From an uncultured archaeon (lineage in GTDB: Archaea > Iainarchaeota > Iainarchaeia > Iainarchaeales > CSSED10-239): 5,874 bases of DNA. A program made the position numbers and the translations under genes. Within the stretch, counting starts at the first letter, position 1; each line of letters opens with the position of its first letter. The notes beneath the pieces are model-generated. The model saw only the letters and a list, made by a program, of their open reading frames with translations, was not told the origin of the DNA and searched no databases. The stretch covers positions 1 to 5,874 of the forward strand of contig CAZQEL010000031.1 in assembly GCA_964591795.1 (NCBI GenBank). The letters run 5' to 3'. Of this stretch, positions 1-5,874 are shown in pieces.

Positions 1-419
1 TCGCCACTATCATCTTCATCAGACCATCTTTCAAAATACTCTCCACTTAATGCAATACCTCCATAAAACCCCGCAGTTAAAAAAAGTTTTCCATCACCTA
101 AATCAAATTTATAACCTAAATTTGCAGGTAGTTCAATATATGTAAATTTCAATATTCTTGTACTTTTATAATCTTCATCTTTGTATATTTCTTTATCTCC
201 TTTACCACTCAATAATAAACCTGATTGAAAAAATAACTTATCTGAAAATGAATAATCTAAGATGCCCCCTAAAGAAAGCGATAATCTTGAATCAGATAGT
301 TCGTAAGAGTCCTTTTCTAAATTTGCAATGTTGATACCTAATTTTGGACCAATTCTAACCTGTGAAAATGAAATAGAAACTAATAATAAAGCAACTGGTA
401 ATAAAATAATTTTTTTCAT
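1..419 (-). CDS. Outer-membrane beta-barrel protein (porin-family / OMP_b-brl_2-like). N-terminal ~139 aa only; the 3' end runs off the window.
   Basis: ATG at 417-419 (minus), with an uninterrupted frame to the window edge (hand-translated; absent from the ORF track because no stop is in the window). The translation begins MKKIILLPVALLLVSISFSQVRIGPKLGINIANLEKDSYELSDSRLSLSLGGILDYSFSDKLFFQSGLLLSGKG...KFTYIELPANLGYKFDLGDGKLFLTAGFYGGIALSG. It has a signal peptide ending SFSQ, then alternating amphipathic strands, including the YIELPANLGYKF and LTAGFYGG segments typical of Bacteroidota porin-family proteins. Confidence 0.75.
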   Translation of the reverse strand, partial: MKKIILLPVALLLVSISFSQVRIGPKLGINIANLEKDSYELSDSRLSLSLGGILDYSFSDKLFFQSGLLLSGKGDKEIYKDEDYKSTRILKFTYIELPANLGYKFDLGDGKLFLTAGFYGGIALSGEYFERWSDEDDSG

Positions 420-520
420 AATTTTTAAATTTATCCACCCCAGCCACAAGGATGGGTAAGTTAATTAAAGGGAACGTGAGGCTTTAACTTCAATCTATTT
501 TTTCAAAACTGAAGCTAACG
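420..520 (-). promoter_or_regulatory. Upstream/leader region of the OMP gene, with four blocks shared with the PKD-gene upstream region.
   Basis: The blocks, in plus-strand coordinates and sequence, are: AATTTTTAAATTT abutting the ATG (420-432), AGTTAATTAAA (459-469), AACGTGAG (473-480) and AAGCTAACG (512-520). The same four blocks occur in the same order at 1587-1599, 1623-1633, 1714-1721 and 1778-1786. Confidence 0.45.
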
Positions 521-629
521 TTTCTTTTTTATTTTATTCTTTTTCTATTTTTTAGGTTGATAACCCCTAAATTGTTTTTGATTATTATTTAACTTAATTC
601 AATTAATGTTTTTAATAGGTCATTCATAT

Positions 630-1586
630 TTATTGGGTACTGTATTTAACTTTAATATTATCAAAAAGACATCTTGTATCGCCACTGGTTAATCTTACAT
701 ATTTTAGCTGTAATTCTTCGTTAATAGCATTATCATTTTCTTGGTGTACAAGTTGCCCATTAATGTAATATTTTAATTCAACTATACTTTCTGATATTTT
801 ATAATCAATTTTTCCTTTAATCCATTCGTTTGCATTAAAACCACCAATTACTGTTTTAGACGGATAACAAGTAATGTCATTATTAGTTTCAAATCTAATA
901 AAATTTCTACCATAACCTGATGTCCAGCTTGTATTTGATTTAATTCCGAAAGAACCAAAACAATTATGATTTCCCACTTGACCCTCTCCTGTAAACAAAT
1001 ATTCAAATTCAAACTGGTAATGTTGATAACTATTATCATATTCTCTATAATTAATACCTTCCCAATTACCCCCGCTAATTCCTTGTATTGAAAAAGAATA
1101 GGGATAAGAAGAATAATCATCATTAGTTACATAACTATCATCACCATTGCCTGATGCTTCCCAATTACTTGGTAAAATATTTAACTGATAACTATTAAAA
1201 TTATCAAACCATAAAGTTGAGTAGCTAATATTTTCGGGATTAACATTAATATAATTTATTTTAGTTTCTGTATCTGAACCATAATCATTTGTAGTATTTA
1301 ATGAAATAGTATATGTGCCTGTTGAATTATAGGTATGTGCGGGATTTTGTTGGGTACTTATACCCCCATCTCCAAAATTCCATGACCAAATTGTAGGTGA
1401 ATTAGTTGATTGGTCAGTGAAACTAATTGTCTCCCCTTCTGTTATTATTGTTTTGTTAGATGTAAATGCAGTAACTGGTTCATATCCTTTATTTTCTTCA
1501 TCTTTTTTGCAACTATTTTGAAATACAATTATGCTACTAAAAAAGCAATAAAATATTAATGCTAAAAATTTTTGTTTTGTTTTCAT
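630..1586 (-). CDS. Lipoprotein with an N-terminal PKD domain and a C-terminal beta-rich (LamG/concanavalin-like?) domain.
   Basis: 318-aa ORF with a TAA stop at 630-632. The N-terminus MKTKQKFLALIFYCFFSSIIVFQNSC is a signal peptide plus lipobox Cys26 (codon 1509-1511), followed by KKDEE. The PKD hallmark is present: ISFTDQSTNSPTIWSWNFGDGGISTQQNPAHTYNSTGTYTISL. The C-terminal ~200 aa are Y/N/G/F-rich and end CLFDNIKVKY, which is jelly-roll-like; this is the weaker call. Confidence 0.85.
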   Translation of the reverse strand: MKTKQKFLALIFYCFFSSIIVFQNSCKKDEENKGYEPVTAFTSNKTIITEGETISFTDQSTNSPTIWSWNFGDGGISTQQNPAHTYNSTGTYTISLNTTNDYGSDTETKINYINVNPENISYSTLWFDNFNSYQLNILPSNWEASGNGDDSYVTNDDYSSYPYSFSIQGISGGNWEGINYREYDNSYQHYQFEFEYLFTGEGQVGNHNCFGSFGIKSNTSWTSGYGRNFIRFETNNDITCYPSKTVIGGFNANEWIKGKIDYKISESIVELKYYINGQLVHQENDNAINEELQLKYVRLTSGDTRCLFDNIKVKYSTQ

Positions 1587-1786
1587 AATTTTAAATTTTT
1601 GTTTTGCTCCAATCCCAAAAGCAGTTAATTAAAATAAAAAAGCGTGGAACTGTAGCTTATCCATTTCAAAGGTACTGTCATACCCAATGCCTAAACAAGT
1701 CAGCCCACGCTGTAACGTGAGCGTCATACTTATTATTCTAGGCATTTAAAAATTGACAGTTTTTGAAATGAAAATAAAAGCTAACG
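1587..1786 (-). promoter_or_regulatory. Upstream/leader region of the PKD lipoprotein gene (same four blocks as 420-520, plus the inserted segment).
   Basis: See the previous feature for the blocks. The order and orientation relative to the downstream (minus-strand) ATG are conserved. Confidence 0.45.
1641..1711. other. 71-nt GC-enriched segment bounded by a 7-bp inverted repeat. It is present in the PKD-gene upstream region and absent from the homologous OMP-gene upstream region.
   Basis: AGCGTGG (1641-1647) and CCACGCT (1705-1711) are perfect inverted repeats. The segment sits exactly between two blocks (AGTTAATTAAA and AACGTGAG). Those blocks are only 3 nt apart at 459-480 but 80 nt apart here. 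Confidence 0.5.
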
Positions 1787-1914
1787 CTTTTTATATTGTT
1801 TAAAAATTAATTGTTAATTTGGATAATTCCTCCTTTCTATTTTTAAGGTTTATAATTTGCAAATATAATAATTTTTGTAATATACAAATTTTTTTAAGAA
1901 TTTTTTTTGTTTTT

Positions 1915-1998
1915 GTGTGGGTAAGAAATAGCTCTTTTGGTTTTTCAAGGGTTGGGTTTTGCGTGTTAGCAAAAATCAAATGTGCTATTTGTGGGTTG
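1915..1998 (+). repeat. Intergenic G/T-rich repeat, copy C1 (most divergent).
   Basis: The sequence gtgtgggtaagaaatagctcttttggtttttcaagggttgggttttgcgtgttagcaaaaatcaaatgtgctatttgtgggttg aligns box-for-box with C2-C4: GTGGG-TAAG box, T-rich arm, G/T-rich loop, GTTAGCAAAAA-TCAAATGTG, then a GT-rich tail. The hairpin arms are 1936-1945 / 1971-1980 (10 bp including one G-T, i.e. G-U, pair). Confidence 0.65.
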
Positions 1999-2159
1999 TT
2001 TTTTGTATGAAATTTAATATTGAGATAAAAAATGGTTGCGGTTTTAATGGTATTTATTTTCTATAAAAAATAAAGATAATAAATTGCTTTAATTTTTTAA
2101 ATTATTACTTCTGTAGCAATTATTTTTTGTTTTTTATTTAAAATTAATCGTTTTTTATT

Positions 2160-2187
2160 TTGATTTTAAAAATATTGTGTATTTTTG
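2160..2187 (+). promoter_or_regulatory. Candidate Bacteroidota-type promoter for the OmpA-like gene.
   Basis: TATTTTTG (2180-2187) fits TAnnTTTG, and a TTG sits at 2160-2162. It lies ~25 nt upstream of ATG 2211. The surrounding DNA is so AT-rich that a chance match is plausible. Confidence 0.3.
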
Positions 2188-2210
2188 CTGTCTAATAAAT
2201 AAACAAAAAA

Positions 2211-3353
2211 ATGAAATCAATTATAGTGTCTTATACTCTGTCCTTTTTATTGGTGTGCAATTATTCTTTTGCACAAAACAATAAATGTGAATTTAAAGAA
2301 GGAGAATACAAACTTAAAGAATTGAGAAATTATATACATTCATATTATAAGAAAATAGATAATGAAATTAATTGTAAAAAGATAATTAATTATTACAATT
2401 GTTATAGTAAGTTTTTAACTGAATATGAAAAGAAGAAACCTATTATAAGTTTTAGAAATGAAGAAAATAGGAAAGAAATTAATTTCAATAAACTCAAAAA
2501 GAAAAAAGATATTTCAAGCAAAAACATAGAAAATATTAAAGAGAAATATTATAAAGCTGTTGAAGATTGTAAACCCCCTCATATAGACACTCTACATATA
2601 CCTGTAGATACATCAAAAACTCTCACAGACGTCAGAAAATCAAGCGCATTTAAACTTAAAAAAGCAAGACAAATAATTAAATCAATTAAAGAAGGACAAT
2701 ATGTCAAAACTGAGGAGATTCGTCAAATAGGAACAGACTTATATGTAGATTTAGCTTATTTTTTAAAAGACGAGTTTCCACCAGGTTATCATATTTTCCC
2801 TGATTATTCTCAAAAGGGTTTAAGAGAATTATTGTTGGTGTTTAAAGATTTTTTAAAAGAGAATGAAAGTAAAGGGATTTATGAATCAGCGATTGTTGTT
2901 AACATAACAGGATATGCAGATAGTATTCCTGTAGGAAATGATTTGAAATACAAGGGATTTACAGAAGATGTTAAAGATTGTAAACCTATAAAAGAAAATT
3001 ATTATTTGCTTGATGATTTTAATGATACACTTCCCGAATATAAAGATAAGTCCAATATTGAATGTGGTAAAAATATAAAAAATAATGAGGAACTATCATT
3101 AACTCGAACAATACATCCAAGAAATATTATTAAAGAAGTTTTAACCTTGTCTGAAATTAATTTATATACTTTACCCTCTCCGCATGGAGGAGGTCTTTAT
3201 AGAAGGGTTGAAATACAATATCTCGTGCCTGATTATTTTTTACCTGAAATGGAGGGCGTTTCAGACAAAGATAAGAAAAGATTTAATGAAGCATCTAAAA
3301 GTGAAATTGAACAAAATTTTAAAATATTTAGATTAGCAAAAAATAAAAAGTAA
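2211..3353 (+). CDS. Secreted Lys/Glu/Asn-rich protein with a divergent OmpA/MotB-like C-terminal domain.
   Basis: 380-aa ORF with a TAA stop. The signal peptide MKSIIVSYTLSFLLVCNYSFAQ is followed by a charged, low-complexity N-terminal half. The C-terminal region (approx. nt 2890-3230) carries ITGYADSIPVG ... NNEELSLTRT ... LYRRVEIQYLV. These follow the order of the OmpA_C motifs (GxTDxxG / NxxLSxxRA / NRRVEI), but with a ~50-aa insertion and substitutions. The A-rich, SD-less leader (aaacaaaaaaATG) is typical of Bacteroidota. Confidence 0.7.
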   Translation: MKSIIVSYTLSFLLVCNYSFAQNNKCEFKEGEYKLKELRNYIHSYYKKIDNEINCKKIINYYNCYSKFLTEYEKKKPIISFRNEENRKEINFNKLKKKKDISSKNIENIKEKYYKAVEDCKPPHIDTLHIPVDTSKTLTDVRKSSAFKLKKARQIIKSIKEGQYVKTEEIRQIGTDLYVDLAYFLKDEFPPGYHIFPDYSQKGLRELLLVFKDFLKENESKGIYESAIVVNITGYADSIPVGNDLKYKGFTEDVKDCKPIKENYYLLDDFNDTLPEYKDKSNIECGKNIKNNEELSLTRTIHPRNIIKEVLTLSEINLYTLPSPHGGGLYRRVEIQYLVPDYFLPEMEGVSDKDKKRFNEASKSEIEQNFKIFRLAKNKK

Positions 3354-3397
3354 TATAAATTTTTTCAATTGCTATTAATATTTTTTACTAAAAGTTT

Positions 3398-4336
3398 TTA
3401 ATTATTCTCATCTTTATAAAAAAAATCATTTTTGAATTCTTTAGCCTTTTTAAAATCAGCATTAGCTTTTTCAAAATTCCCTATTCTTTCATATGTGACC
3501 CCTCTACAATAATAAGCTTCGGAGAAGTTTGATTCTAATTCTATTGCCTTACTAAAGTTCTCAATAGCAGCAGCATAATCTTTTTTGTAAAAAAAAGGGT
3601 GTCCCCTATTACGATAAGTTTCAGAAGAGTTTGGATTTAATTCTATTGATTTATTATAATCTTTAATAGCCAAATCATAATTTTTATTTTTTTCTTCCCA
3701 CTTCCCTCTATCTGCATATGCAATAGCAATTAATTCTTGTTTTGTTAAATTTTTCATATAAAGGTTCTTTTCGATAGACTCTCTTTGGATAGTTAGCAAC
3801 CCAATATAATCTTTGTCAGAATATAATTCATTTTCAGTTGTCTCCCAATTAAAATCTCCCTTATTCACAATATCTGTACTTTCTAAACTACCATATCTTA
3901 TAAACATGTGACCTGGTGCTCTAACACCAAAAAGATTTAAATTAAATTTTTCTCCAACTGCCAAATAAATAAATGACATATCACTACAATCAAATTTATG
4001 TATTTCGTACTCAAGTCCTAAATTATTAATTTCTCTATGGGTTGTTTTTAATATTTCAATGACTTCCTCTTTAGAATATTTCTCTTTTTTATTGTATTGT
4101 TTTTCAACATTTTCAATTATTTTTTCTAATTTATTTACATCATGAAAGTTATTTTCAGAATCTTTCATAATTTCATACATAAAATGTGTTGTAGTAGGAT
4201 ATTTTTCTGTTTCATTCATAACTGAATCTACAAACGCAGATTTGTTTTGTCCTTTTTCTTGTGTTTGAGAATATCCTAATAAAGAACTAACTAGAAAAGT
4301 TCCTGCAATTACTGGTAACTTCCAGTTAAATCTCAT
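3398..4336 (-). CDS. Secreted transglutaminase-like (Transglut_core2 / SirB1-type) protein with C-terminal TPR repeats.
   Basis: 312-aa ORF with a TAA stop. The N-terminus MRFNWKLPVIAGTFLVSSLLGYSQ is signal-like. FDCSDMSFIYLAVGEKFNLNLFGVRAPGHMFIRY (approx. nt 3890-4000) matches the Cys...PGH core of transglutaminase-like proteins that are fused to TPRs. The C-terminal ~110 aa (approx. nt 3410-3730) show three TPR-like units: YDLAIKDYNKSIELNPN, YAAAIENFSKAIELESN and FEKANADFKKAKEF. Confidence 0.8.
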   Translation of the reverse strand: MRFNWKLPVIAGTFLVSSLLGYSQTQEKGQNKSAFVDSVMNETEKYPTTTHFMYEIMKDSENNFHDVNKLEKIIENVEKQYNKKEKYSKEEVIEILKTTHREINNLGLEYEIHKFDCSDMSFIYLAVGEKFNLNLFGVRAPGHMFIRYGSLESTDIVNKGDFNWETTENELYSDKDYIGLLTIQRESIEKNLYMKNLTKQELIAIAYADRGKWEEKNKNYDLAIKDYNKSIELNPNSSETYRNRGHPFFYKKDYAAAIENFSKAIELESNFSEAYYCRGVTYERIGNFEKANADFKKAKEFKNDFFYKDENN

Positions 4337-4338
4337 CC

Positions 4339-4376
4339 AAGTAGGATGATTTTTTTATTTAAAAAACTTCCTACTT
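4339..4376 (-). promoter_or_regulatory. 5'-leader hairpin abutting the start codon of the transglutaminase/TPR gene.
   Basis: AAGTAGGA (4339-4346) is the exact reverse complement of TCCTACTT (4369-4376). The interior can extend the stem through T-run/A-run pairing (4350-4354 with 4361-4365). On the minus-strand mRNA the stem ends 2 nt before the AUG (4336-4334). Confidence 0.5.
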
Positions 4377-4400
4377 ATAAACTACTATAAAATGGTATAT

Positions 4401-4417
4401 GTCTTGTGTGGCAAATC
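4401..4417 (+). repeat. Partial copy (tail box only) of the same repeat family.
   Basis: gtcttgtgtggcaaatc resembles the 3' tail box of C3 (tttgtgtgtgttagcaaaag) and C4 (tttgtgtgttggcaagc). It lies ~60 nt upstream of C2 in the same orientation. Confidence 0.4.
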
Positions 4418-4475
4418 GTAAATCAAAAATCGTTAATCCTTGTTCTTAAACCAATCTCTTGAAAAGTCAGTTTGA

Positions 4476-4557
4476 GCGTGGGATAAGTTCTTTTCAATTT
4501 TTTAGTGTTGTAAGTGAGTTGGCAAAAATTGAAATGGGCTTGATAGGGTGGGCAAAT
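4476..4557 (+). repeat. Intergenic G/T-rich repeat, copy C2 (first of a tandem pair).
   Basis: The sequence is gcgtgggataagttcttttcaattttttagtgttgtaagtgagttggcaaaaattgaaatgggcttgatagggtgggcaaat. Nt 4484-4505 are identical to 5562-5583 (22 nt). The hairpin arms are 4492-4502 / 4524-4534 (11 perfect bp). Confidence 0.8.
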
Positions 4558-4596
4558 AATAAGTATTAATTATCATTTTTAACTAAAATAGTTTAA

Positions 4597-4687
4597 GCGT
4601 AGGCAAAAACAAACTCTTTCAAATTTTTTAGCGAGGTGGGGCTGAGTTAAGCAAAAATTTGAATGTGTTTGTGTGTGTTAGCAAAAG
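4597..4687 (+). repeat. Intergenic G/T-rich repeat, copy C3 (second of the tandem pair, 121 nt after C2).
   Basis: The sequence is gcgtaggcaaaaacaaactctttcaaattttttagcgaggtggggctgagttaagcaaaaatttgaatgtgtttgtgtgtgttagcaaaag. Nt 4654-4676 are identical to 5604-5626 (23 nt). The hairpin arms are 4618-4628 / 4653-4663 (11 perfect bp). Confidence 0.8.
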
Positions 4688-4714
4688 TCCGCAGAAAGAT
4701 TTTTTACTTTTTTC

Positions 4715-4745
4715 TTGACTTTACATTTTTTATTTTGTATATTTG
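4715..4745 (+). promoter_or_regulatory. Promoter for the 69-aa ORF.
   Basis: TTGACT (4715-4720), an exactly 17-nt spacer, then TATATT (4738-4743) is near the sigma70 consensus. The same TATATTTG (4738-4745) also fits the Bacteroidota -7 motif TAnnTTTG, with a TTG ~20 nt upstream. It lies ~45 nt upstream of the ATG. Confidence 0.6.
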
Positions 4746-4780
4746 TCGCTTAATTCAATTAGTGTTTAACTTTTAAAATA

Positions 4781-4786
4781 GGAGGT
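4781..4786 (+). promoter_or_regulatory. Shine-Dalgarno sequence (GGAGGT).
   Basis: GGAGG ends 5 nt before ATG 4791. It is the only strong SD in the window; every other gene here has an A/T-rich leader without an SD. Confidence 0.65.
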
Positions 4787-4790
4787 AGCT

Positions 4791-5000
4791 ATGTCTGAAA
4801 ATATTAAATTTGGAAAAATTTTTTCTAGTAAAACAGGTATTGGAGCAACTTCGCAAGGGGTGGGAAATAAAGAAGTAGAATCACACTTCACCTTTGATAA
4901 AAACAAAGGTTTTCATGTATCAACTTATTTGAATGATTATTTGATGTCTAATTTAGAGAAAACTAATCAAAAAATAAAAGTGAATCAAACTAATTTTTAA
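4791..5000 (+). CDS. Hypothetical small protein (69 aa), apparently a monocistronic unit.
   Basis: The ORF is MSENIKFGKIFSSKTGIGATSQGVGNKEVESHFTFDKNKGFHVSTYLNDYLMSNLEKTNQKIKVNQTNF. It is preceded by GGAGG (4781-4785) 5 nt before the ATG and by a TTGACT-N17-TATATT promoter. A hairpin plus T-run terminator follows ~15 nt after the TAA stop. It has no signal peptide and I recognise no family. Confidence 0.6.
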   Translation: MSENIKFGKIFSSKTGIGATSQGVGNKEVESHFTFDKNKGFHVSTYLNDYLMSNLEKTNQKIKVNQTNF

Positions 5001-5015
5001 AAAATAATTTTAAAG

Positions 5016-5042
5016 GCAGGAATAAAAATTTTCTGCTTTTTT
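5016..5042 (+). terminator. Intrinsic (Rho-independent) terminator after the 69-aa ORF.
   Basis: GCAGGAA (5016-5022) pairs with TTTCTGC (5030-5036): 7 bp including one G-U, with a 7-nt loop. A T6 run follows immediately (5037-5042). Confidence 0.7.
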
Positions 5043-5083
5043 ATTGGCTTAAATATATAAGCTTAAATTGGTTTGTTTTATTA

Positions 5084-5497
5084 ATGGGTAATATAAAAGT
5101 AGCATCAATCATTTCAGATTTTTCTAAAAATATAAATTGGAAAAATCTTCCACAAGTAAATATTTTGGAGAAAAGGAATAAAAAAATTATTAAATTGAAA
5201 AGAGAAATAGAAAGATTTAATGAAAAAGAAGAATATGAGAAACTTTCGCTAAAACTCATAAATTTTTTAAAAGAAGTTCTAGTTACTGCTAATAAAAATT
5301 ATTCAAAACAAAAAGAATTATTTGATGAATTGTATTGGTTTCGTTATTCATTTGTAGATAAAGAAGAAGATTCACTTCTTTTGGATGAAATTTCAAATAT
5401 ATTTTTTGAATTTCAATCAGATCCAAATTACGATGAATTAATTAAAAAAATTGATTTTGCTAGGAAAAAAATTAGTTTAATTATTTCTAAAACATAA
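5084..5497 (+). CDS. Hypothetical protein (137 aa), predicted mostly helical and highly charged.
   Basis: ORF with a TAA stop and K/E/I/L-rich heptad-like stretches (KIIKLKREIERFNEKEEYEKLSLKLINFLKEVL). It has no signal peptide and no recognisable motif. It starts 42 nt after the upstream terminator. There is no clear RBS, so the start codon is uncertain. Confidence 0.5.
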   Translation: MGNIKVASIISDFSKNINWKNLPQVNILEKRNKKIIKLKREIERFNEKEEYEKLSLKLINFLKEVLVTANKNYSKQKELFDELYWFRYSFVDKEEDSLLLDEISNIFFEFQSDPNYDELIKKIDFARKKISLIISKT

Positions 5498-5557
5498 ATC
5501 TTTTTTTTTAATTTTTAATTTCTCAAATTATTTTTAAAAAAATAGGTTCAAACAAAA

Positions 5558-5634
5558 GGGTTAAGTTCTTTTCAATTTTTTAGCTTGTGAGAGGGATTGT
5601 GCGAAAATTTGAATGTGTTTGTGTGTTGGCAAGC
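5558..5634 (+). repeat. Intergenic G/T-rich repeat, copy C4 (mosaic: C2-type 5' half, C3-type 3' half).
   Basis: The sequence is gggttaagttcttttcaattttttagcttgtgagagggattgtgcgaaaatttgaatgtgtttgtgtgttggcaagc. It shares an exact 22-mer with C2 and an exact 23-mer with C3. The hairpin arms are 5571-5580 / 5603-5613, with a 1-nt bulge and a terminal T-G pair. Confidence 0.8.
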
Positions 5635-5765
5635 TTGCATGAATGTTTCTTTTTTTAAAATAGGGCATAACTCTGCAAATAAAAAATCGTTTTAATGTTT
5701 TTTATTTGTTGTTAAAATTTTAGATTAATCCCTAATTTTATAAACCCCTTCCTATTTCTTTAAAT

Positions 5766-5874
5766 ATGATATTAACAAAAGACGAACTAGAAGAAATTCT
5801 TGAAGAACTTAAGAAACATAAAGGAAGAGCAACTGAATTAATTAGTGTTTATATTCCTGCGGGTTATGATGTGA
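5766..5874 (+). CDS. aRF1/eRF1-family (archaeo-eukaryotic release factor-like) protein. N-terminal 36 aa only; it continues beyond the window.
   Basis: Hand translation from ATG 5766 gives [36 protein letters not shown], open to the window edge. An amphipathic helix followed by [15 protein letters not shown] matches the conserved start of aRF1/eRF1 domain N (compare human eRF1 ...LEAARGNGTSMISLIIPP, and archaeal aRF1 ...GRGTELISLYIPP from memory). Only 36 residues are visible, so divergent bacterial eRF1-like (baeRF) families cannot be excluded. Confidence 0.6.

What the first reader, a model, noticed from the sequence alone, without database searches (positions are those of the whole stretch)
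5766..5874. aRF1/eRF1-type release-factor N-terminus in a bacterial-looking (Bacteroidota-like) neighbourhood
The visible 36 aa (…[25 protein letters not shown]) match the conserved beginning of archaeal/eukaryotic class-I release factors. Bacterial RF1/RF2 are unrelated in fold. The other genes in the window look bacterial, and specifically Bacteroidota-like. The evidence is a porin-family OM beta-barrel, a lipoprotein with the C-K-K-D-E-E patch, an OmpA-like RRVEI domain, SD-less A-rich leaders and signal peptides ending SFSQ/SFAQ/YSQ. There are four possibilities. (a) Horizontal acquisition of an archaeo-eukaryotic release factor, or one of the bacterial eRF1-like (baeRF) families that have been linked to ribosome rescue or conflict systems. 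(b) A genuinely archaeal, or DPANN/Asgard-like, contig that carries bacterial-type envelope genes. (c) A viral or giant-viral fragment. (d) A chimeric assembly. TTTATAAA at 5737-5744, 22 nt before the ATG, fits either a bacterial -10 (TATAAA) or an archaeal TATA box for a near-leaderless mRNA, so the promoter does not settle the question.
Basis: partly seen in the sequence, partly recalled or inferred. Interest (0 to 1): 0.72.

Follow-up and report, generated by a model that had tools for sequence, protein, structure and literature searches.

The report
Archaeal release factor beside bacterial-type gene island
The fragment is the start of an ordinary archaeal release factor (aRF1) from a tiny DPANN (Pacearchaeota/Woesearchaeota-like) archaeon. 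The bacterial-looking genes beside it are a 7.5-kb block of Bacteroidota-type envelope genes sitting between two archaeal housekeeping genes that are neighbours in related archaea.

Summary
An ATG at 5766 opens an ORF that runs off the window, and its 36 residues match the N-terminus of aRF-1 (TIGR03676, E 6.8e-8). Overlapping public contigs complete the gene to 361 aa. It has eRF1_1/2/3 domains and NIKS, YxCxxxF and GGQ motifs, and it passes the curated aRF-1 cutoff.

Its 80 best genomic relatives (63-90% identity over the best-matching part of the first 65 aa) are all DPANN in content. Seventy-eight are labelled as DPANN lineages or simply 'archaeon'; two are titled 'bacterium' but carry archaeal genes. 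So this is not a bacterial acquisition of aRF1, and not a baeRF.

The neighbours really are bacterial in type. One is a PF13568 outer-membrane beta-barrel whose named homologues are all Bacteroidota. There are also lipoproteins with C-K-K-D-E-E-type patches, a PKD protein and a TPR protein.

A longer contig shows these genes form a ~7.48-kb block between valS and aRF1. These two genes lie on the same strand, mostly 0-100 nt apart, in at least 45 of 80 relatives. The block has the same GC (26%) as the archaeal contig that continues the gene, and its content varies between samples.

Best reading: reader option (b), an archaeal contig carrying a variable island of bacterial-type envelope genes. 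The release factor is ordinary and the island is modestly interesting. An assembly chimera is unlikely but needs read-level proof.

The parts
5766..5874 (+). First 36 codons of a classical archaeal class-I release factor (aRF1). The full gene is 361 codons and continues outside the window.
   Evidence: Translation. TIGR03676 E 6.8e-8 at profile positions 3-32. PDB aRF1 top hits. Contig L002 extends the ORF to 65 aa, including NIKS. L049 and P0110 give the full 361 aa with eRF1_1/2/3, YRCDKEF and GGQ. TIGR03676 412.8 bits against a cutoff of 234.7.
5737..5744 (+). TTTATAAA, a likely archaeal TATA box for a leaderless or near-leaderless aRF1 mRNA (inferred).
   Evidence: Read directly from the sequence. 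Several genes on the continuing archaeal contig L049 have a similar A/T box about 22-30 nt before the ATG. The box and the following ~20 nt are conserved in the second aRF1 allele, L091.
5820..5874 (+). Last 55 nt of the window, identical to the first 55 nt of archaeal genome contig L049. The boundary between two population alleles of the aRF1 5' end lies at 5819/5820.
   Evidence: The window's last 55 nt equal the first 55 nt of L049, and a 56-nt match fails. The last 141 nt of L002 equal the first 141 nt of L049. Allele 2 (P0230, L091) is 141/141 identical from codon 19 but only 37/54 identical in codons 1-18.
1..5765 (.). The part inside the window of a ~7.48-kb block that separates valS from aRF1. 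The block spans window coordinates about -1714 to 5765 and extends beyond the window's left end.
   Evidence: L002 contains the whole window with 1 mismatch and carries a ValRS C-terminus at window coordinates -1888 to -1718. valS lies on the same strand just upstream of aRF1 in 45 of 80 related DPANN loci, with a gap of -4 to 1870 nt and mostly under 100 nt. ValRS identity by NF009687.
3..419 (-). N-terminal 139 codons of a 217-aa porin-family outer-membrane beta-barrel protein with a signal peptide (MKKIILLPVALLLVSISFSQ).
   Evidence: PF13568 E 3e-14 for the window part and 8e-19 for the full length. All named homologues are Bacteroidota at 29-34% identity. The long-contig relative P0038 sits among T9SS-tail (Por_Secre_tail), Omp85 and GreA genes.
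630..1586 (-). 318-aa predicted lipoprotein with a PKD domain. The signal ends ...VFQNSC, followed by KKDEENK.
   Evidence: PKD_4 E 5.4e-18. The same protein occurs, identical, on contigs from five samples, and the DNA of those contigs is 100% identical to L002.
2211..3353 (+). 380-aa secreted protein of unknown family. Its signal ends ...NYSFAQ.
   Evidence: No Pfam, NCBIfam, PDB or PHROG match. The AlphaFold single-sequence model has pLDDT 34.9.
3398..4336 (-). 312-aa secreted TPR-repeat protein with a weak transglutaminase-like N-terminal region.
   Evidence: TPR_1 E 1.8e-18. Transglut_core2 E 0.002, below its cutoff.
4791..5497 (+). Two small ORFs (69 aa at 4791-5000 and 137 aa at 5084-5497) with no informative family match, the last genes of the block before aRF1.
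   Evidence: ORF list. No Pfam or NCBIfam family. In PHROGs the 69-aa ORF has no hit, and the 137-aa ORF has only a weak hit to a family of unknown function (E 0.0017).
5558..5626 (.). One of three copies of a hairpin-bearing intergenic repeat. The others lie at ~4480-4530 and ~4605-4680.
   Evidence: the repeat finder families D3, D7, D8 and I11. Alignment. No copies outside the block. No Rfam family.

Best explanation
Window 5766-5874 is the 5' end of the ordinary class-I peptide-chain release factor (aRF1) of a low-GC DPANN archaeon of the Pacearchaeota/Woesearchaeota/Nanoarchaeota group.

By homology, the protein reads all three stop codons through its N domain (NIKS and YxCxxxF motifs). 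It releases the peptide through the GGQ loop of its M domain. The gene is probably transcribed from the TATA box at 5737-5744 as a leaderless mRNA. These functional steps are inferred, not shown.

The bacterial-looking genes to its left are not the home genome of the release factor. They are a ~7.48-kb, strain-variable block of bacterial-type (Bacteroidota-type) secreted and envelope genes. The block contains an outer-membrane beta-barrel, two lipoproteins, a PKD protein, a TPR protein and several ORFs with no informative family match. It lies between valS and aRF1, two genes that are adjacent in related archaea.

The block most likely entered by inter-domain gene transfer into a recombination-prone intergenic spot. 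Since then it has been reshuffled between co-occurring strains. This also explains why every assembly breaks around the 5' end of aRF1.
For: Identity of the gene:
- The 36 aa match TIGR03676 at E 6.8e-8, and aRF1 chains top the PDB hits.
- A MEGAHIT contig holding the whole window (1 mismatch) extends the ORF to 65 aa with NIKS.
- Its last 141 nt are identical to the start of contig CAYVGH010000011.1, from a Woesearchaeota-labelled genome.
- The composite 361-aa protein equals database protein P0110.
- It has eRF1_1 (9e-14), eRF1_2 (2.9e-38) and eRF1_3 (8.3e-21), with NIKS at 52, YRCDKEF at 116 and GGQ at 174.
- It passes TIGR03676 at 412.8 bits against a cutoff of 234.7.

Lineage:
- 436 genomic relatives were found. 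The best 80 are all DPANN in content, at 63-90% identity.
- Full-length relatives are 75-83% identical and are named aRF-1 of Pacearchaeota or Nanoarchaeota.

The block as an insertion:
- The far end of the longer contig encodes a ValRS C-terminus (83.6% identical to that of L007).
- In 45 of 80 relatives that gene lies on the same strand directly upstream of aRF1.
- Here the two genes are ~7.48 kb apart.

Support for the joins:
- The left join is spanned by L002 (MEGAHIT) and L003 (Logan).
- The right join is spanned by the window and L002.

Composition: the block has GC 0.260, the window 0.262 and L049 0.261.

Bacterial type of the block: PF13568 with only Bacteroidota among the named homologues. 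A 34%-identical relative sits in a T9SS/Omp85/GreA context.

Variability:
- L089 diverges from L002 inside the block, into a second OMP paralogue.
- A second aRF1 allele has a different upstream region and different codons 1-18, then is identical from codon 19.

Background: bacterial-type genes in Pacearchaeota and Woesearchaeota are documented (PMC8204110).
Against: - No reads were available, so both joins rest on assemblies that may share the same raw data.
- The Logan assembly breaks 60 nt upstream of the ATG, at window 5705.
- All assemblies end within or near the first 65 codons.
- The window contig itself is not in the binned genome.
- The block's tetranucleotide pattern correlates only 0.58 with L049. 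That is no better than with other DPANN species.
- An outer-membrane beta-barrel has no obvious place in a single-membrane archaeon.
- No such gene was found in 1.1 Mb of related DPANN loci.
- The 18,283-nt JGI contig that carries the exact protein could not be retrieved.
- The gene upstream of the second allele is not valS within the 200 nt available, so an 'empty site' allele was not found.
Confidence: 0.8

Rival explanations
1. Assembly chimera. A fragment of a low-GC Bacteroidota genome was wrongly spliced between the valS and aRF1 genes of a co-occurring archaeon.
For: - Contigs break repeatedly around the aRF1 start: Logan at 5705, the window at 5874 and MEGAHIT at 5960.
- The joins lie in AT-rich intergenic DNA.
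- L089 shows the block continuing into more OMP genes instead of valS.
- The block genes look Bacteroidota-like.
- The window contig is absent from the binned genome.
Against: - It needs two independent false joins that attach the fragment to the two sides of one conserved archaeal gene junction.
- The left join appears in both a k=31 Logan contig and a k=141 MEGAHIT contig. The right join appears in the window and in MEGAHIT.
- The breaks at 5820 are fully explained by a second real aRF1 allele.
- GC is identical to the archaeal contig, 0.26.
- The one Bacteroidota-like relative contig has GC 0.33 and a tetranucleotide correlation of 0.17 with the block.
Confidence: 0.08
2. The block is native, fast-evolving DPANN surface-protein DNA. 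It is not a transfer from Bacteroidota, and its resemblance to bacterial envelope proteins is ancient or convergent.
For: - GC equals that of the host contig.
- The block's tetranucleotide pattern falls within the DPANN range, 0.3-0.8.
- Identity to named Bacteroidota porins is only 29-34%.
- Several block ORFs have no informative family match.
- DPANN lineage-specific families are often extracellular (PMC8204110).
Against: - PF13568 and PF13505 hits are well above their cutoffs.
- Every named homologue is Bacteroidota, and the long-contig relative is in a clearly bacterial context.
- No OMP-like ORF occurs in 80 DPANN loci.
- Both lipoproteins carry acidic patches after the Cys, typical of Bacteroidota surface lipoproteins. 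The meaning of that motif rests on my own knowledge and was not tested here.
Confidence: 0.08
3. A bacterium acquired an archaeal-type release factor, or the gene is a baeRF-1/VLRF1-type rescue factor in a Bacteroidota genome (reader option a).
For: - The immediate neighbours within the window are bacterial in type.
- The bVLRF-1 family is found predominantly in Bacteroidetes (PMC6514570).
- Pfam baeRF_family10 and acVLRF1 give secondary hits on the M domain.
Against: - The classical eRF1_2 domain scores 131.6 bits, against 52 and 41 bits for the baeRF and VLRF1 models on the same stretch.
- The protein passes the aRF-1 equivalog cutoff.
- NIKS, YxCxxxF and GGQ are all present.
- It is 75-83% identical to DPANN aRF1 proteins.
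- valS and the downstream contig are archaeal and syntenic with DPANN relatives. A TopA homologue lies in 20 loci.
Confidence: 0.02
4. The block is an integrated virus or other mobile element, or the contig is viral (reader option c).
For: - It is a discrete insertion at a conserved junction, and its content varies between samples.
- It contains repeated intergenic elements.
Against: - There is no match in the viral contig collection.
- There are no informative PHROG hits. Only a TPR family and one weak hit of unknown function were found.
- No integrase, transposase or capsid family was found.
- There is no tRNA.
- No flanking direct repeats were seen at the two joins.
Confidence: 0.02

Closest known systems
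Classical archaeal release factor aRF1 (NCBIfam TIGR03676; Pfam eRF1_1/eRF1_2/eRF1_3), as in Aeropyrum pernix 3agk and Halobacterium 4af1
   Same: - Three-domain architecture.
- NIKS, YxCxxxF and GGQ motifs.
- Passes the curated equivalog cutoff.
- N-terminal helix-strand signature KGRxTELISxYIP.
- 75-83% identical to aRF1 of Pacearchaeota and Nanoarchaeota genomes.
   Different: Nothing functionally distinctive was found. At 361 aa it is short, but so are its DPANN relatives (360-364 aa). Only the first 36 codons lie in the window.
Bacterial aeRF-1 paralogues (the baeRF-1 families) and VLRF-1 (Burroughs and Aravind 2019, PMC6514570)
   Same: Same superfamily. The Pfam baeRF_family10 and acVLRF1 models give secondary hits to the central domain.
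   Different: According to PMC6514570:
- these paralogues occur in bacteria alongside RF1/RF2;
- most lack the catalytic Gln or the flanking domains;
- they are spread by lateral transfer.
This protein keeps all three domains and all motifs. It scores far higher on the classical models and sits in an archaeal genome.
Bacterial-type genes in Pacearchaeota and Woesearchaeota acquired by inter-domain transfer (Castelle et al. 2021, PMC8204110)
   Same: The DPANN lineage group is the same. The genes are bacterial-type and extracellular or envelope-related. The context check is the same as in that paper: archaeal marker genes on the same contig.
   Different: That paper reports murein-like lytic transglycosylases, chaperones, Ack/Pta and similar systems, and a text search of it found no occurrence of 'outer membrane'. 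Here the cargo is a cluster with a porin-family beta-barrel and Bacteroidota-style lipoproteins. It sits at a defined, strain-variable site between valS and aRF1.
Bacteroidota porin-family outer-membrane beta-barrel proteins (Pfam PF13568 OMP_b-brl_2; NCBIfam NF049866)
   Same: Hits are above the Pfam cutoff over the whole barrel. The protein has a signal peptide and is ~200-240 aa long. All named homologues come from Flavobacterium or Draconibacterium.
   Different: It is only 29-34% identical to named members. It is encoded between archaeal genes in an organism expected to have no outer membrane or BAM machinery. That expectation is from general knowledge and was not tested here.

Membership tests
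Classical aRF1/eRF1 (TIGR03676; Pfam eRF1_1/2/3) | Score above the curated whole-protein cutoff of the aRF-1 equivalog model | tested here: met
   P0110, identical to the composite of the window and L049, scores 412.8 bits against a cutoff of 234.7. The 36-aa window fragment alone scores 31.7 bits at E 6.8e-8, below the cutoff as expected for a fragment.
Classical aRF1/eRF1 (TIGR03676; Pfam eRF1_1/2/3) | Three domains: N (stop-codon recognition), M (peptidyl hydrolase) and C | tested here: met
   eRF1_1 at residues 13-130 (9e-14), eRF1_2 at 137-265 (2.9e-38) and eRF1_3 at 269-361 (8.3e-21).
Classical aRF1/eRF1 (TIGR03676; Pfam eRF1_1/2/3) | NIKS and YxCxxxF motifs in the N domain and GGQ in the M domain | tested here: met
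   NIKS at 52, YRCDKEF at 116 and GGQ at 174. NIKS was also seen directly in the L002 extension.
Classical aRF1/eRF1 (TIGR03676; Pfam eRF1_1/2/3) | Peptide release at stop codons on the ribosome | not testable with these tools
   Needs a biochemical or genetic assay. It is inferred from homology only.
baeRF-1 / VLRF-1 bacterial paralogues | Best match to a baeRF or VLRF1 model rather than to the classical eRF1 domains | tested here: not met
   baeRF_family10 scores 52.1 bits and acVLRF1 41.4 bits, against 131.6 bits for eRF1_2 on the same stretch.
baeRF-1 / VLRF-1 bacterial paralogues | Encoded in a bacterial genome | tested here: not met
   Both flanks are archaeal. ValRS lies upstream, and the downstream contig comes from a Woesearchaeota-labelled genome. 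The synteny is shared with DPANN relatives.
Pelota/Dom34 | Score above the curated cutoff of TIGR00111, and absence of GGQ and NIKS | tested here: not met
   99.8 bits against a cutoff of 177.65. GGQ and NIKS are present.
Bacteroidota porin-family OM beta-barrel (PF13568), for the ORF at window 3-419(-) | Pfam score above the gathering cutoff across the barrel | tested here: met
   53.9 bits for the window part and 68.8 bits for the full 217 aa, against a cutoff of 27.
Bacteroidota porin-family OM beta-barrel (PF13568), for the ORF at window 3-419(-) | Insertion into an outer membrane by BAM in the organism that encodes it | not testable with these tools
   The rest of the genome was not available. 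DPANN archaea are not known to have an outer membrane (general knowledge).
OmpA C-terminal-like domain, for the 380-aa protein at window 2211-3353 | Match to an OmpA-family model or structure | tested here: not met
   No Pfam hit at E<=1, no NCBIfam hit at E<=10 and no PDB sequence hit at E<=10. The AlphaFold model has pLDDT 34.9 and was not usable for a fold search. A remote relationship is not excluded.
Integrative mobile element or provirus, for the 7.48-kb block | Integrase or transposase, flanking att or direct repeats, tRNA target, or virion genes | tested here: not met
   No such Pfam, NCBIfam or PHROG families. No tRNA. No flanking repeat pair at the joins.

The most novel reading that the evidence does not exclude
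The block records gene flow from a Bacteroidota partner into a Pacearchaeota-like episymbiont. On this reading the archaeon keeps intact, strain-variable copies of its partner's outer-membrane and surface-lipoprotein genes because it uses them at the cell-cell interface, for example for attachment, mimicry, or insertion into the partner's outer membrane. That would name a bacterial host lineage for a DPANN group whose hosts are unknown.
Probability: 0.12. Interest if true: 0.75.

Novelty: new member of a known kind. Interest (0 to 1): 0.3.

Why it matters
The headline worry, an archaeal-type release factor living in a bacterium, is resolved. The gene is the ordinary aRF1 of a DPANN archaeon, and nothing about translation termination needs rethinking.

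What remains is a clean, contig-level example of bacterial envelope genes embedded between two archaeal housekeeping genes. This is the kind of case usually dismissed as binning contamination. Here it is anchored by synteny on both sides, which makes it a useful positive control for inter-domain transfer into DPANN genomes.

It also offers a possible, unproven pointer to Bacteroidota as partners of these archaea in Antarctic lake water.

Tried and rejected
- Exact-match scans with a 46-mer spanning 5796-5841 found nothing in the viral, genome or metagenome collections. A 38-mer to the right of 5820 also found nothing in the metagenome collection.
- The word-indexed homologue search refuses queries under 40 aa. 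With the 36 aa padded by four X it found no candidate.
- The exhaustive representative search with the 36 aa gave 31 weak hits, mostly fragments, and added nothing beyond.
- The Logan contig carrying the 137-aa gene stops before the ORF.
- The 18,283-nt JGI contig that holds the exact protein P0110 is not retrievable.
- An alternative genetic code (table 4) does not lengthen the real ORFs, so the low coding density is not a code artefact.
- There are no tRNAs and no Rfam families.
- Tetranucleotide comparison was inconclusive. The block resembles DPANN loci in general, but not its own genome in particular. Only one Bacteroidota-like comparator was available.
- The intergenic hairpin repeat was tested as a marker linking the block to the archaeal contig. 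It is absent there.
- The single-sequence AlphaFold model of the 380-aa protein failed, with pLDDT 34.9, so no fold search was run.

Full report
**1. The observation.** Window 5766-5874 (+) starts with ATG and reads [36 protein letters not shown] to the end of the window. TTTATAAA is at 5737-5744. The similarity to archaeal release factors is real.
- NCBIfam TIGR03676 (aRF-1) aligns residues 6-35 to profile positions 3-32 at E 6.8e-8.
- The two best PDB sequence matches are aRF1 chains 3agk_A and 4af1_A, aligned at their own N-termini.
- Pfam gave nothing for so short a piece.

**2. Completing the gene.** The exact sequence was not found by pattern scans. However, the 318-aa PKD protein of the window led to an ENA MEGAHIT contig, L002 (7849 nt).
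- L002 contains the whole window with one mismatch. It runs from window coordinate -1888 to 5960.
- In L002 the ORF is 65 aa long and includes ...SKNIKSTSTRKNV, the NIKS motif.
- A genome scan with the 65 aa found 436 relatives. The best 80 carry DPANN-lineage or generic 'archaeon' labels (two are titled 'bacterium'), at 63-90% identity.
- One of them, L049, is a 10.8-kb contig from a Woesearchaeota-labelled genome. It begins at codon 19, and its first 141 nt are identical to the last 141 nt of L002.
- Joining the two gives a 361-aa protein that is identical to database protein P0110.
- The protein has eRF1_1, eRF1_2 and eRF1_3 domains, with NIKS at 52, YRCDKEF at 116 and GGQ at 174.
- It scores 412.8 bits on TIGR03676 (cutoff 234.7). 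It is below the cutoff for pelota.
- Full-length relatives are 75-83% identical. Where they carry a name, it is aRF-1 of Pacearchaeota or Nanoarchaeota.

This is a classical aRF1. It is not a baeRF or VLRF1 paralogue, whose Pfam models score much lower on the same stretch (background in PMC6514570).

**3. The neighbourhood.**
- The ORF at 3-419(-) is the start of a 217-aa PF13568 outer-membrane beta-barrel, E 3e-14 for the window part and 8e-19 for the full protein.
- All 78 homologues found carry PF13568, and every named one is from Bacteroidota, at 29-34% identity.
- A 34%-identical relative on a 14-kb contig sits among genes with T9SS C-terminal-tail (Por_Secre_tail), Omp85 and GreA domains.
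- The ORF at 630-1586(-) is a PKD lipoprotein with ...NSCKKDEENK. A 166-aa neighbour just outside the window has ...NGCNKEEEKE.
- The ORF at 3398-4336(-) is a secreted TPR protein.
- The 380-aa protein has no detectable family, so the OmpA-like idea is not confirmed.
- The standard genetic code fits. There are no tRNAs and no Rfam families.

**4. The key result.** The far left end of L002 (window -1888 to -1718, + strand) encodes the C-terminus of a valine-tRNA ligase. It is 83.6% identical to the ValRS C-terminus of relative L007.
- In L007 that gene ends one base before the aRF1 start.
- The family assignment rests on NF009687, which scores 776 bits (cutoff 738) for the full-length homologue in L046.
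- In 45 of the 80 related loci, the ValRS C-terminus lies on the same strand upstream of aRF1. The gap ranges from -4 to 1870 nt and is mostly under 100 nt.
- A full-ORF check adds at least L046 to that count.
- In this organism the two genes are ~7.48 kb apart, and all the bacterial-type genes lie in between.

So the contig is archaeal at both ends. The 'bacterial neighbourhood' is an inserted block at a conserved archaeal gene junction. That junction also holds smaller insertions in some relatives.

**5. Is the block really in the archaeal genome?**

In favour:
- A chimera would need two false joins that attach a foreign fragment to the two sides of one archaeal junction.
- The left join is covered by both a k=31 Logan contig (L003, window -1777 to 1663) and the k=141 MEGAHIT contig. 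The right join is covered by the window and by the MEGAHIT contig.
- GC is 0.260 for the block, 0.262 for the window and 0.261 for L049.
- The repeated contig breaks near the aRF1 start have a specific explanation. A second allele (P0230, contigs L090-L092) is identical from codon 19 onward (141/141 nt). It matches only 37/54 nt in codons 1-18, and further upstream it is unrelated.
- The window ends exactly 55 nt, and L002 exactly 141 nt, past position 5820. That is the pattern expected if assembly graphs with k=55 and k=141 branch at this allele boundary (the branching itself is an inference).
- One of the samples with the second allele, IMG 3300031227, is an Ace Lake (Antarctica) metagenome (PMC9324843).

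Against:
- No reads were available.
- The assemblies may share raw data.
- The Logan contig stops at 5705.
- The window contig is not part of the binned genome.
- The block's tetranucleotide pattern is only generically DPANN-like: r = 0.58 with L049, 0.3-0.8 with other DPANN loci and 0.17 with the one Bacteroidota-like contig.

I put the chance of a chimera at about 8%.

**6. Variability.**
- In another sample, contig L089 is 100% identical to 1703 nt of the block. It then diverges into a second OMP paralogue (79% aa identity) where L002 has a 74-aa gene and valS.
- Codons 1-18 of the window allele are 49/54 nt identical to L007, while the following 141 nt are 118/141. The 5' end of aRF1 is therefore mosaic between lineages.
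- Together these findings point to a recombination-prone, strain-variable site rather than a fixed gene order.
- No integrase, transposase, phage family, tRNA or flanking repeat marks the block as a classical mobile element.
- No OMP-like ORF occurs in the other 80 DPANN loci, about 1.1 Mb in total.

**7. How it works.**
- The aRF1 gene is presumably transcribed from the TATA-like box at 5737-5744 as a leaderless mRNA. Several genes on L049 show a similar A/T box 22-30 nt before the ATG. The box is also conserved in the second allele. This is inference, because A/T boxes are common in 26%-GC DNA.
- The protein's function is inferred from homology: stop-codon recognition by the NIKS and YxCxxxF motifs, and peptide release by GGQ.
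- What the block does in an archaeon is unknown. Its ORFs are intact and identical across five samples. That is compatible either with use or with recent arrival.
- Published work already reports many bacterial-type genes in Pacearchaeota and Woesearchaeota. It suggests that some of these archaea may live on bacteria (PMC8204110; PMC6349945).
- A host-derived origin for the block is therefore a reasonable but untested idea.

**8. Verdict.**
- The release factor is already-known biology.
- The block is a new example of a known phenomenon, bacterial genes in DPANN genomes. Its cargo is unusual: an outer-membrane barrel and Bacteroidota-style lipoproteins.
- Interest is 0.3.

Noticed in passing
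window ~4480-4530, ~4605-4680 and ~5562-5626: There are three copies of a hairpin-bearing intergenic repeat. The core is TTCTTTTCAATTTTTTAG, then a loop, then GCnAAAATTTGAATGTGTTTGTGTGT. Two copies lie in the 430-nt gap before the 69-aa ORF and one lies upstream of aRF1. There is no Rfam match, and no copies occur on the archaeal contig L049 or in the 80 DPANN loci.
   Followed up: partly
window 1633-1654; also L002 6239-6260 and L089 ~2000-2030: A shared element, TACAGTTCyryGCTTTTTTATT, lies upstream of three genes: the PKD lipoprotein gene, the 166-aa lipoprotein gene and the second OMP gene of L089. It has a hairpin-plus-T-run look. It could be a terminator or a common regulatory element of the block's surface-protein genes. 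The overlap between the two Logan contigs (window 1634-1663) falls on it.
   Followed up: no
window 1587-2210, 4337-4790 and 5498-5765: The intergenic regions are unusually long (about 620, 450 and 270 nt), and coding density is about 64% for a prokaryotic contig. This is not explained by an alternative genetic code, tRNAs or known RNA families.
   Followed up: partly
L089 1704-2882 (ENA ERZ27315634): In another sample the block continues into a second porin-family paralogue (79% aa identity) preceded by a GGAGGT Shine-Dalgarno-like motif. L002 has a 74-aa gene and valS at that position. The block's content therefore differs between populations.
   Followed up: partly
L090-L092, compared with window 5732-5874: A second aRF1 allele (P0230) has five amino-acid differences in residues 1-18 and none afterwards. 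Its upstream region is unrelated beyond about 34 nt before the ATG. What lies upstream of it is unknown.
   Followed up: partly
L046 (DAITPU010000001.1) and L065 (DAIQOR010000009.1): Two genome records titled 'bacterium' carry the same valS-aRF1 pair. L046 also carries archaeal Nre and Elp3-like radical-SAM/GNAT genes. Their content is archaeal, so the record titles look wrong.
   Followed up: partly
window 3398-4336 (-), residues ~120-154: The secreted TPR protein has a weak transglutaminase-like hit (Transglut_core2, E 0.002, below cutoff) ahead of its TPR repeats. This hints at a protease-like or adhesin-like N-terminal module.
   Followed up: no
L090 1153-1314 (-) and L091 1301-1462 (-): A 53-aa ferredoxin-like (4Fe-4S) gene lies on the opposite strand directly after the aRF1 stop codon. 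My ORF list for L049 used a 60-aa minimum and missed it.
   Followed up: no
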